In this document: positions 14,521-28,366 of the stretch, in pieces | Position numbering within the stretch: position 1 is the stretch's first letter | Layout: each line of letters begins with the position of its first letter | From: Eledone cirrhosa | Lineage: Eukaryota | DNA length: 33,627 nucleotides | NCBI GenBank assembly: GCA_964016885.1 | Contig: CAXHJY010001575.1 | Location: 1-33,627 of the forward strand | Reading direction: 5' to 3' | Notes under the pieces: model-generated | Databases searched by the model: none | Told to the model about the DNA's origin: nothing | The model's input: only the letters and a program-made list of their open reading frames with translations | Translations under genes and position numbers: made by a program

Positions 14521-14567
<47 letters not shown>

Positions 14568-14610
14568 ATTAAATAAATGGAAAACTATATTTATAAAACT
14601 GTTTATATTG

Positions 14611-14676
14611 TATTTTGTCTGATGAAGGCATAGCATATTGTTAATATGATATCCCCGAAATATATATAATGAATTA
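14611..14676 (+). ncRNA. Minimal type-I hammerhead ribozyme (family 1) at the tip of a long hairpin
   Basis: TATTTTGT-CTGATGA-AGGCATAGCATATT(GTT)AATATGATATCCCC-GAAA-TATATA-TA-ATGAATTA. Closed by a perfect 38-bp helix (14562-14599/14683-14720). Predicted cleavage after 14668. Confidence 0.75.
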
Positions 14677-14804
14677 AATATGGTTTTATAAATATAGTTT
14701 TCCATTTATTTAATATTGTAAATATACTCCAAATATTTGTCGAGTGCTTTTATATCAGTTATAAATATTTACTAGTTGTAACCCAACAATTTTAAATATA
14801 ACTT

Positions 14805-14841
<37 letters not shown>

Positions 14842-14939
14842 GAGAGAGAGATGAGATTATATATATCGACTTTCGTCAAATCGGACCGAGGAAACAATGT
14901 TTTCATTGGTCTTTCCAATTGCTAATACTATCTATTGGT

Positions 14940-15060
14940 TGCAACTCCAGATAGAAGGAGCAACGTGAAATAAAGTGTCTTGCTCAAGGACATAACGCAT
15001 CATCCGGTCCAGGAATCGAACTCACAACCTCACGATTGCAAATTCAATTCTCTAACCACT
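14940..15060 (-). mobile_element. tRNA-derived SINE, family B (5' part)
   Basis: Minus-strand B-box GTTCGATTCC (15012-15021). CCTTGAGCAAGACACTTTATTTCACGTTGCTCC is homologous to ~29125-29157. Confidence 0.85.
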
Positions 15061-15144
15061 CATATGTGTGTTTCCCGGCTTCAAACGGGGGTAACCACAG
15101 GAAGTAAGGTACTCAATACATAGCAGAGTATAAATATTTAATAC

Positions 15145-15236
15145 AGAAATGGCTTCTACAGGATTAGAACTGTTTCATTCGAAGGGCTTTCCTGATGATT
15201 TCCTTCGAATGAAACAGTTCTAGTCCTGTAGAAGCC

Positions 15237-17788: not shown

Positions 17789-18669
17789 CAATTCTGTCAG
17801 ACCGGAAATTCTGCCAACCTAGTTTCGATCGAGTGTTTTCTTTCTTGACAATCTGCCTTCGGTGTCATTCGGTGCTTTCTTCTCCTCCCCTTCTCCTCTT
17901 TCTACCTCGTCTTCTTCTTCGCCTTCTCTTCCTCTTCTTCTCCCTTTTATTCTTCACCTTCTTCCTTCTCCTCCTTCTTCTTACCAGTCTTCTCTTTGTC
18001 TGTCTGTCTCTCCCTCTCTCTCTCTATATATATTGTTTGCTTTTTATTGTCCCCCCCTATTTCCCCCCTCGTCCCCCACTCTCAGCCTTTTCTGTCCTCA
18101 ATATCTCCCTCCATATCTCCCTCCTTGATTCTCTCACAAACTCCCCCTCACTTTCTTACATTCTCTACCTCCCACCACCACCAACACCACGATCACTACT
18201 ACCACTATAACTACCAACACCACCACCACCACCACTATACCACCAACACCATCAGCATCAACACTATCGTCATCAACTGTGGTACAGTTACCACCACCAT
18301 CATCATCATCAACAACACTATCGTCAACAACTGTGGTACTGTTACCATCAGCTTCACCACCACCATCATTACCACTACCGTCCCCACCCTGTTGCTCCCT
18401 CCCCTCCTCTCCAACCCTTTCAGGAATGCCCTCTTATCTCACACCCTACTATTTACAACTGCTACTCCCACTTACATGACAACACCGCACCTCATCACCC
18501 CGTCCTCGGTTCACATACCTCATTCTCCAAGTTGAATCACAATAGCCAACCTTAGTACGAAGTCAACACTAGCTATGTAATACCGACTCCTTTGGGGCTT
18601 CTTTATTACCAATCGACTTTTTGTTGTTGTTTTTAACACAAATTTAGAATTTTGAGGGACAGTTTACCA

Positions 18670-18853
18670 TTGGCAGTATCGGTAGAGGGTCGGACGCCAT
18701 GCTTTGCAGCCAAGAGTTACAGCTCTTTATGGTCTGAGTTCAAATCCCGCCGAGGTTAACTTTGCCATTCATCCTTACTAGGATCGATAAAATAAAGTAC
18801 CAGTGATACACTGGGTGGTTGCTGACCTTGTGCCAAAAGTAGAAACAATTATT
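18670..18853 (+). mobile_element. tRNA-derived SINE, family A, near full length
   Basis: A-box-like TGGCAGTATCGG, B-box GTTCAAATCC (18738-18747), 3' end GTGCCAAAAGTAGAAACAATTATT. Confidence 0.9.
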
Positions 18854-27036: not shown

Positions 27037-27464
27037 ATATGTATGTATGTATGTATGTATGTGTGTATGTATGTGTGTGTGTATGTGTGTATGTATGTAT
27101 GTATGTATGTATGTATGTATGTATGTATGTATGTATGTATGTATGTGTGTATGTGTGACTGTGTCATTTGGCATACATTTTGTGTATACATACATCCATC
27201 CATACATACTATACGTATATACAATTATAACTTTCCTTGATTCTGACCTTCCCTTGTCGACGACACCTCGTCCCTTCCCACCGAAACTTCTCCTGTCCTT
27301 CCCCTTCCGACACTTCCGCTATCCACCTCACCTTCCACCCCCACCCCCCACAATGGTGCCTTATCGATCTAACACTCACTAATTCCCTCTCACTACAACC
27401 ACCACTTTGACCTGAGAATTCCTCAGACATATTTCAGTTTGAGCAATCAACAGTTGTTTATACA

Positions 27465-28200
27465 TTTGGCACAGGGCCAGCAACTACCCCCACTGCATTA
27501 CTGGTACTTTATTTTATCGACTCCGTAATAATTGCCTCTACTTTTGGCACAAGGCCAGCAATTATCGACCCCCAGTGCATTACTGGTATTTTATTTTATC
27601 TATCCTGTAAGGATGAAAGGCCATCGCACTATTTGTCGTCGCTTTTAACATTTTGAGTTCAAATCCGACCAAAGTCAACTTTGCCTTTCATCCTTCCGAG
27701 GTCGATAAAATAGAGAAGCAGTCAAGTACTGACCCTGTGCCTAAATTAGAAATATTTATTATAACAGGAGATGAAAGGTAAAGCTATTTTCCCGCCGAAG
27801 TTACATTTGTCTTTCATCGCTTCAAATTGCCAAAAGGTAGAAACAGTTATTTCGGATGGTTGATCCCTTGTGGTATTTTGTCATAGTTCACACACACATT
27901 ATATATATATATATACATACACACACTTACGGGGTCGATAAAATAAAGTACCAGTAATCTACTCTGTGTTAATTGCTGGTCTTGTCCCAAAAGTAGAAAC
28001 AATTATTAAAGATACGGTGGTGAATTGGCAGTATCGGTAGAGGGTCGGACATGCTTTCCAGTATAGTTACATCTCTTTCCATTCTGAGATCAAATCCCGT
28101 CGAGGTTAACTTTGCCTTTCATCCTTACGGGGTCGATAAAATAAAGTACCAGTAATGCACTGGGTAATTGCTGGCCTTGTGCCAAAAATAGAAACTATTA
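27465..28200. mobile_element. Cluster of family A SINE fragments in both orientations
   Basis: Minus: 27465-27528 and 27537-27621 (tandem 3' halves). Plus: 27655-27755, 27790-27848, 27928-28008 and a near-full copy at 28014-28200. Confidence 0.85.
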
Positions 28201-28366
28201 TATATATATATATATATAGATGTGTGAGTATATATAAATATACACATATATATATATATACACTCATCTATATATATATATATATACACATCTATCTATA
28301 TATACATCTATCTATCTATATATACATCTATCTATATATACATCTATCTATCTATATATACATCTA

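What the first reader, a model, noticed from the sequence alone, without database searches (positions are those of the whole stretch)
14562..14720. Second family 1 hammerhead with a completely different helix II, closed by a perfect 38-bp stem
Seen: core, helix III and flanks are shared with 7982-8044, but helix II sequence is unrelated (CATATT/AATATG versus TACCAAA/TTTGGTA) while still pairing. Inference: structure is conserved without sequence, which supports selection on the RNA fold in the source elements.
Basis: partly seen in the sequence, partly recalled or inferred. Interest (0 to 1): 0.7.

Follow-up and report, generated by a model that had tools for sequence, protein, structure and literature searches.

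The report
Hammerhead end of Hydra-clade Penelope retroelement
This is a short, probably dead stub of a very abundant jumping gene of a known kind; its hammerhead-shaped RNA motif keeps its pairing across subfamilies, but the striking 38-base stem belongs to this copy, not to the family, and is likely a scar of how it was pasted in.

Summary
The type I hammerhead motif is real: core 14619-14625 and 14657-14660, predicted cut after 14668. It is the 3' end (pLTR) of a Hydra-clade Penelope-like retroelement. The motif has 58,133 exact pattern matches in the genome, and long copies carry a 737-aa RT plus GIY-YIG ORF.

Two title claims fail. The 38-bp stem is not part of the ribozyme: 2 of about 5,585 subfamily copies have that junction. 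It is an inverted, truncated second arm joined at the native 8-nt complementarity TATAAAAC/GTTTTATA.

The inference holds. Eight of 9 helix II pairs show double-sided changes. Changes on subfamily branches keep pairing (17:2) and changes in single copies mostly do not (18:30).

This copy has a rare helix I mismatch and is predicted to misfold. Cleavage is untested and no RNA run was listed. The scan noted such elements earlier on other DNA of this genome. Verdict: a new family of a known clade.

The parts
14562..14599 (-). Inverted, 5'-truncated second arm (38 nt): reverse complement of pLTR 3' end 14683-14720, beginning at the family's short end next to (TA)n
   Evidence: (most family copies match only query 27-159)
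14592..14599 (+). 8-nt overlap TATAAAAC shared by both arms: the native 5' strand of the stem below helix I; inferred junction microhomology
   Evidence: same junction in independent locus L182 with the tail on the other arm
14592..14807 (+). Forward arm: 5'-truncated pLTR plus tail of a Hydra-clade Penelope-like element
   Evidence: 94-95% identical over 226-279 nt to pLTRs of ORF-bearing copies L104 and L109
14611..14618 (+). Hammerhead helix I, 5' strand TATTTTGT
   Evidence: 96.6% of cells paired across 96 sequences
14619..14625 (+). Catalytic box CUGAUGA (C3-A9)
   Evidence: invariant except N7, but fixed by the search pattern
14626..14656 (+). Helix II, 14 positions with GUU loop; A.C at the first pair, family-conserved C.C (14629.14653), G.A (14633.14649), distal CATATT/AATATG
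14657..14668 (+). GAAA box, palindromic helix III (AUAUAUAU 14660-14667) and cleavage triplet AUA; predicted cut after 14668
   Evidence: sequence; self-duplex -3.2 kcal/mol; cleavage untested
14669..14676 (+). Helix I, 3' strand; T14674 is a rare variant (family A) that gives a U.U mismatch
   Evidence: A in 1,964,659 of 1,967,279 summed contig depth in run X1
14683..14720 (+). pLTR 3' end up to the short end-point (about 48 nt after the cut site)
   Evidence: 42 of 75 copies end here
14721..14807 (+). About 88-nt tail, equal to the start of the next unit's 5' UTR; ends at the long end-point
   Evidence: 31 of 75 copies end here; runs into the ORF leader in L109
14726..14746 (+). Bulged hairpin ACTC-CAAATATTTG-TC-GAGT-G, 5 nt behind the short end; candidate RT start signal
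   Evidence: loose motif in 62 of 75 non-short contexts across subfamilies; lead from earlier findings
14525..14561 (.). (TA)n target microsatellite, left flank; the right flank (TA)n begins near 14808
7944..8103 (-). Comparison copy: pLTR of a diverged sister subfamily (core 8036-8030), short end, no inverted arm
   Evidence: upstream EN in sister copy L064 is 48% identical to L104 over 129 aa

Best explanation
The stretch is a young, two-armed, 5'-truncated insertion of the hammerhead-bearing 3' repeat (pLTR) of a Hydra-clade Penelope-like retrotransposon, and its 38-bp stem likely arose during insertion rather than as part of the ribozyme. Shown: family, parent ORF, two fixed end-points, one per arm, and covarying helix II. 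Inferred mechanism: the element's GIY-YIG nuclease nicks both strands of (TA)n. Each nick primes reverse transcription at one of two internal start sites, about +48 and +137 from the cut site. One cDNA stopped after 38 nt and the other after about 215 nt, and they were joined through the 8-nt complementarity that the RNA already has below helix I. In source elements the type I hammerhead would cut the tandem precursor RNA after AUA, most likely as a dimer through the palindromic helix III and/or with help from the element's protein. Selection on source lineages kept helix II paired while its letters drifted. This particular copy is probably inactive.
For: Parent: full-length copies with pLTR-ORF-pLTR and the same hammerhead. 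The model (pLDDT 90.7) matches telomerase RT best (3du5, E 1.1e-9), and residues 613-715 match I-TevI GIY-YIG (Z 9.7, rmsd 2.2, 88 of 92 aligned). Hydra motifs are present (against PMC8557442 section 11). Stem: 2 against 5,585 copies; the second is an independent locus with the tail on the opposite arm. Among the first 100 listed matches, 33 of 37 neighbours within 10 kb are head-to-head. Of 28 two-armed loci, 19 have one short and one tailed arm, none has two alike, 1 runs on and 8 were cut off by the locus edge. Helix II: 88.8% of cells paired against 17-55% in slid registers; 143 double-change cells against 40.9 +/- 11.7 in shuffles, 0 of 500. Inner branches 17 paired to 2 unpaired, tips 18 to 30, p=0.0001; slid controls p 0.13-1.0. 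Published parallels: inverted 5'-truncated copies and a one-sided tail (PMC8557442); both-strand extension, two internal RT starts and protein-dependent hammerhead cleavage (PMC11167929); palindromic helix III and dimer model (PMC4209133).
Against: No cleavage or expression data. Rfam gives no hammerhead hit. RNAalifold's consensus is not the hammerhead but a weak rival helix that buries GAAA (-1.75 kcal/mol). Helix I has probability above 0.5 in only 11 of 68 sampled copies. Two of the five covariation measures do not beat shuffles (137 of 500 and 261 of 500). Core, helix III and part of helix I were fixed by my search pattern, so their conservation is not evidence. The tree is short and quick (203 columns, 64 of 112 inner branches open). 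The youngest lineages tolerate A.C, U.U and G.A mismatches in helix II. Pfam does not recognise the ORF. The dual-priming step rests on genomic footprints and on a Poseidon element, not on this one.
Confidence: 0.88

Rival explanations
1. The fold is selected but not for self-cleavage: the pLTR structure serves as a protein-binding or RT-positioning element and the hammerhead is vestigial or only conditionally active.
For: Poor predicted monomer folding. The first pair of helix II is non-standard in 17 of 96 variants. Hammerhead mutants of the anole element still insert in vitro and no RNA ends map to its cut site (PMC11167929). Metazoan PLE hammerheads cleave weakly (PMC4209133).
Against: 58,133 copies across diverged subfamilies carry an exact core with only N7 free, the one position that hammerheads leave free. 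The pattern required it, so the fraction without a core is unknown.
Confidence: 0.2
2. The 38-bp stem arose after insertion, by recombination or deletion between the arms of a longer inverted pair at the 8-nt repeat, rather than during cDNA synthesis.
For: Long inverted pairs are common and palindromes are unstable (general knowledge). The end state would be the same sequence.
Against: Arm lengths vary continuously, with 64 to 7,671 nt between hammerheads, as 5' truncation predicts. The arms are 100% identical and very short inverted arms occur at other junctions too.
Confidence: 0.12
3. A MITE-like or foldback element with 38-bp terminal inverted repeats that carries a hammerhead, or a retrozyme whose long stem is selected to close the ribozyme.
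For: Perfect terminal repeats next to (TA)n.
Against: The element runs 87 nt past the right repeat; only 2 copies have the junction; family copies lead upstream into an RT-EN ORF; no tandem monomers were seen in the fetched loci; the stem does not change the predicted hammerhead fold.
Confidence: 0.03

Closest known systems
Hydra clade of C-terminal EN+ Penelope-like elements, including Hydra-1_Obim from Octopus bimaculoides (Craig et al. 2021, PMC8557442; section 11, passages, supplement Files S1/S2 and protein passages read)
   Same: Single RT plus C-terminal GIY-YIG ORF; RW(K/R), DKT, CxCX5C, CxxC and CxH motifs; no CCHH; (TA)n targets; sense type I hammerhead near the 3' end with self-complementary helix III; non-standard first pair of helix II in several published members; inverted truncated copies.
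   Different: A different family from Hydra-1_Obim (unrelated hammerhead letters in File S2; protein alike only by eye). About 3.9 kb with a 1.35-kb 3' UTR, against generally under 3 kb. Helix II has 8-14 positions with a conserved C.C, against 3-7 bp in the Hydra rows of File S2. The tail is about 88 nt against the 30-40 bp quoted for PLEs. Tens of thousands of copies.
Metazoan PLE hammerheads (Cervera and de la Pena 2014, PMC4209133; results and discussion read)
   Same: [quoted passage not shown]
   Different: That paper reports a highly conserved G10.1-C11.1 plus an extra nucleotide; here the best register has a variable first pair (AU 51, GU 24, UU 10, AC 5, GC 4 of 96). Cephalopods did not come up in my searches for it.
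Poseidon_Ac element in vitro (Frangieh et al. 2024, PMC11167929; main text read)
   Same: Two internal RT start sites that bound the tail, extension on both strands, AT-rich targets.
   Different: Different clade; there the hammerhead overlaps the ORF start, here it lies about 210 nt upstream of the ATG and 1.35 kb downstream of the stop.
Animal non-LTR retrozymes (PMC7229834, search listing only; bioRxiv 10.64898/2026.07.22.740005, first fifth read)
   Same: Type I hammerhead related to PLE pLTRs.
   Different: Not a tandem array of monomers; parents encode their own protein.

Membership tests
Type I hammerhead ribozyme | Core CUGANGA ... GAAA and NUH cleavage triplet | tested here: met
   CUGAUGA 14619, GAAA 14657, AUA 14666-14668
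Type I hammerhead ribozyme | Helix I open-ended, helices II and III closed | tested here: met
   Family cells paired: helix I 96.6%, II 88.8%, III 100% (helix III fixed by the pattern). This copy has one U.U in helix I
Type I hammerhead ribozyme | Standard purine-pyrimidine pair 10.1-11.1 (usual, not universal) | tested here: inconclusive
   A.C in this copy in the symmetric register, G-C if A14626 is an extra nucleotide; 79 of 96 against 94 of 96 paired in the two registers, but only the symmetric one holds at pairs 2-3
Type I hammerhead ribozyme | Active fold is thermodynamically accessible | tested here: inconclusive
   This copy: hammerhead fold 8 kcal/mol above MFE, P(helix I) 0.00; family median 3.2 kcal/mol above MFE. 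The model ignores tertiary contacts, dimers and protein
Type I hammerhead ribozyme | Match to an Rfam hammerhead model | tested here: inconclusive
   No hit at gathering score or at E<=10; whether Rfam models cover PLE variants with a 2-bp helix III was not tested
Type I hammerhead ribozyme | Self-cleavage | not testable with these tools
   Needs an assay
Penelope-like elements (EN+) | Single ORF with telomerase-like RT and C-terminal GIY-YIG | tested here: met
   In parent copies: 737 aa, YRDD; top fold hit TERT; I-TevI match at 613-715. The window copy itself has no ORF
Penelope-like elements (EN+) | pLTRs, partial tandems, inverted 5'-truncated copy, one-sided tail | tested here: met
   157-bp direct repeat in L109; 19 of 19 classifiable two-armed loci are short plus tail
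Hydra clade | RWK and DKT motifs | tested here: met
   RWR at 37-39 (K 39, R 25 of 73 rows); DKT at 118-120
Hydra clade | CxCX5C linker; CxxC and CxH beside the conserved E and N; no CCHH | tested here: met
   CNC-RDRSK-C at 596-604, CDLC at 694-697 before E700, CKH at 721-723 after N712; one non-conserved Cys between the IVY and YVG motifs
Hydra clade | (TA)n targets and hammerhead present | tested here: met
Hydra clade | Groups with Hydra elements in an RT phylogeny | not tested
   Reference sequences lay only in a paper supplement; compared by eye
Neptune clade | CX2-5CxxC linker and CCHH motif in the EN | tested here: not met
   my first label, dropped
Non-LTR retrozyme | Non-coding tandem monomers, each with a hammerhead | tested here: not met
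   Single or inverted copies with ORF-bearing parents
MITE or foldback DNA element | Terminal inverted repeats shared by family members | tested here: not met
   2 of about 5,585

The most novel reading that the evidence does not exclude
These octopod-type Hydra elements carry a switchable, long-helix hammerhead. An invariant C.C mismatch at helix II position 4 would be a tertiary or protein contact, and the helix I 5' strand could pair either with the catalytic GAAA (off) or its true partner (on), so that the element's protein triggers cleavage. Every insertion would be built from two cDNAs primed on opposite strands at two hairpin-marked start sites, with this 38-bp scar as a minimal case. 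Tens of thousands of young copies with intact ORFs would make the unsolved PLE insertion mechanism directly testable.
Probability: 0.25. Interest if true: 0.6.

Novelty: new member of a known kind. Interest (0 to 1): 0.3.

Why it matters
As found, modestly. It adds an undescribed, very abundant and recently active family to a known clade. It also gives a lineage-versus-copy test showing that helix II pairing was selected in source elements, which the 2014 paper noted qualitatively. The strict short-arm plus tailed-arm rule and the junction at the ribozyme's own complementarity are useful footprints for the open question of how PLEs make inverted, one-tailed insertions. It is also a caution: perfect long stems around such ribozymes can be insertion products rather than RNA structure.

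Tried and rejected
Rfam: only microsatellite-driven miRNA noise. The repeat finder was swamped by microsatellites.

Pfam found nothing useful on the ORF or on 12 of 153 relatives; best RVT_1 E 0.005 on an unrelated ORF in L061 and GIY-YIG E 0.2 on the L064 fragment. The PDB sequence profile found nothing. The single-sequence fold failed (pLDDT 31.9); the alignment-based fold worked.

The Neptune label was rejected on motifs. MITE and retrozyme readings were rejected.

The rival 'off' helix from RNAalifold is dominant (P>0.5) in this copy and in L104, but in only 3 of 68 positionally sampled copies. Its columns are largely fixed by my pattern, so it is not claimed as conserved.

The apparent recurrence of T at 14674 among the hits is query bias: one search shows it is rare.

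Expression: no RNA holder listed; contigs of four runs of unrecorded kind were laid and say nothing on expression or cleavage. Runs X5 and X6 hold only 2-3 pieces and were not interpreted. R-scape was not available.

Literature: six searches. None listed a paper on this family or on a C.C mismatch in hammerhead helix II. Repbase, Dfam and subscription journals were not searchable, and bioRxiv supplements were closed, so the family may already have a library name.

Full report
Observation. 14562-14720 has a perfect 38-bp stem around 83 nt. Inside lie CTGATGA (14619), a 31-nt helix II region, GAAA (14657), TATATATA and ATGAATTA. The minus-strand copy at 8036-7990 shares core, helix III and flanks. 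Rfam does not recognise either. The window is contig C1602 of a 3.0-Gb microsatellite-rich genome. The closest named protein relatives are from Argonauta hians, so an octopod is my inference.

Family. A pattern for the motif has 29,192 + 28,941 exact matches and the reversed control has 0. Long copies lead upstream through a 1.35-kb 3' UTR into an ORF. Many copies are 97% identical in the C-terminal part, and seven of eight fetched stretches hold a 710-755-codon open frame. The window arm is 94-95% identical to their pLTRs. An alignment-based model of the 737-aa protein (pLDDT 90.7) matches telomerase RT first, and its last 100 residues match the I-TevI GIY-YIG domain (Z 9.7). I first called it Neptune. 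An earlier scan note pointed to the Hydra clade, and the motifs listed in PMC8557442 section 11 are all present: RWR, DKT, CxCX5C, CxxC, CxH, no CCHH. The published octopus member Hydra-1_Obim has a different hammerhead, so this is another family. The 7944-8103 copy belongs to a sister lineage whose endonuclease fragment in L064 is 48% identical. No phylogeny with reference PLEs was run.

The 38-bp stem. Most family hits cover only query 27-159; upstream they carry ordinary pLTR sequence. The fold-back junction occurs twice in the genome against 5,585 copies with the same downstream 31 letters. Of 75 sampled copies with this helix II type, 73 have enclosing perfect stems of 2-12 bp and two have 38. 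The left arm is the reverse complement of the pLTR end and overlaps the forward arm by TATAAAAC, which is the native partner of GTTTTATA. The second case, L182, has different flanks and the tail on the opposite arm, so it is an independent event at the same 8 nt. Copies end at two places, about +48 (42 of 75) or +137 (31 of 75; 2 neither) from the cut site. Head-to-head pairs dominate: 33 of 37 close neighbours among 100 listed matches. Of 28 two-armed loci, 19 have one end of each kind, 1 runs on and 8 could not be classed. The window copy fits: short left arm, tailed right arm to about 14807, (TA)n on both sides. Inverted truncated copies and one-sided tails are published PLE traits (PMC8557442). 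Both-strand extension from two internal RT starts was shown for an anole element (PMC11167929). Joining of two cDNAs by microhomology is my inference; it resembles L1 twin priming (recalled, not looked up). The stem does not alter predicted folding of the ribozyme part (same probabilities with and without it).

Helix II. Anchored on the core, TACCAAA faces TAGCATA (5 of 7 identical), both helices have C.C at pair 4, and sampled variants bridge them in 18 steps of 1-6 edits. Across 96 distinct variants, 8 of 9 pairs show double-sided changes (for example pair 2 AU 43/GC 40, pair 3 GC 74/AU 20, pair 5 GC 49/AU 37). 88.8% of cells pair against 17-55% in slid registers, and three measures beat 500 of 500 shuffles while two do not. 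Because kin share changes, I built a tree on flanks only (119 of 181 contexts, at most two per helix) and mapped the changes. In a fixed register, changes on branches with 4 or more tips end paired 17 times and unpaired 2; at tips the counts are 18 and 30 (p=0.0001); slid registers show no such contrast. With bulge fitting over all pairs the counts are 25:7 and 30:37 (p=0.002). This is what selection in source elements plus neutral decay of inserted copies predicts. Caveats: the tree is weakly resolved, the sample was chosen by a pattern that fixes the core and helix III, and young lineages carry mismatches at pairs 1 and 8. Pair 4 is C.C in 86 of 96; whether that is functional is untested. 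Compensatory families among PLE hammerheads were already described (PMC4209133).

Activity. Helix III is the palindrome AUAUAUAU (AUAUGUAU in other lineages), which fits the dimer model for metazoan PLE hammerheads. This copy is a poor candidate. T14674 is rare (A in 99.9% of laid depth) and breaks a helix I pair. The predicted MFE pairs the helix I 5' strand with CGAAAUAU (P 0.87), 8 kcal/mol below the hammerhead fold. RNAalifold also prefers that weak rival helix, but it dominates in only 3 of 68 sampled copies. No RNA data were available.

Extra. The tail begins with a bulged hairpin (14726-14746) found in 62 of 75 non-short contexts, and a similar one lies just behind the long end in four full-length elements. 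This agrees with earlier scan notes that propose these as RT start signals; I tested presence only.

Verdict. A real hammerhead motif and real covariation, in a new family of a known PLE clade. The two eye-catching claims in the title are an out-of-register comparison and a copy-specific inversion. Interest 0.3.

Noticed in passing
window 7655-7844: Near-perfect hairpin with arms of about 90 nt (-133.6 kcal/mol) with a truncated CTGATGA at 7748 on the minus strand; looks like a two-armed insertion of another PLE-type family.
   Followed up: partly
window 15165-15221: Small perfect fold-back (about 21-bp arms) containing CTGATGA at 15192; related sequence recurs in loci L015 and L071, probably another short two-armed insertion.
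   Followed up: no
window 10994 and 24476 (minus), 10536 (minus): Two near-identical CTGATGAAGGACTC... copies and a related CTGACGA copy with no GAAA within 100 nt; possibly another ribozyme-bearing repeat or the scrambled hammerhead named in earlier scan notes.
   Followed up: no
window 5259-5290: CTGACGA-AGGACTAGTTTCC-GAAATGTTA: candidate short-helix hammerhead of another family.
   Followed up: no
window 14920-15070 and 2426-2593, 18669-18853, 27454-28201: Copies of an abundant SINE-like repeat (tRNA-like B box, label recalled); several match flanks of L104.
   Followed up: no
L104, L108, L109, L110, L111: Young full-length elements with intact 737-aa ORFs and CUGAGGA cores; N7 (T, G, A or C) marks subfamilies.
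   Followed up: partly
L155, L179, L038, L108:8142-8208: A sublineage with helix II shortened to 20 nt and C.A in place of C.C, still paired.
   Followed up: partly
L060:1900-2568 (minus): A 223-codon open frame that looks like an intronless Ras-like small GTPase gene next to a family copy; label from motifs recalled, not searched.
   Followed up: no
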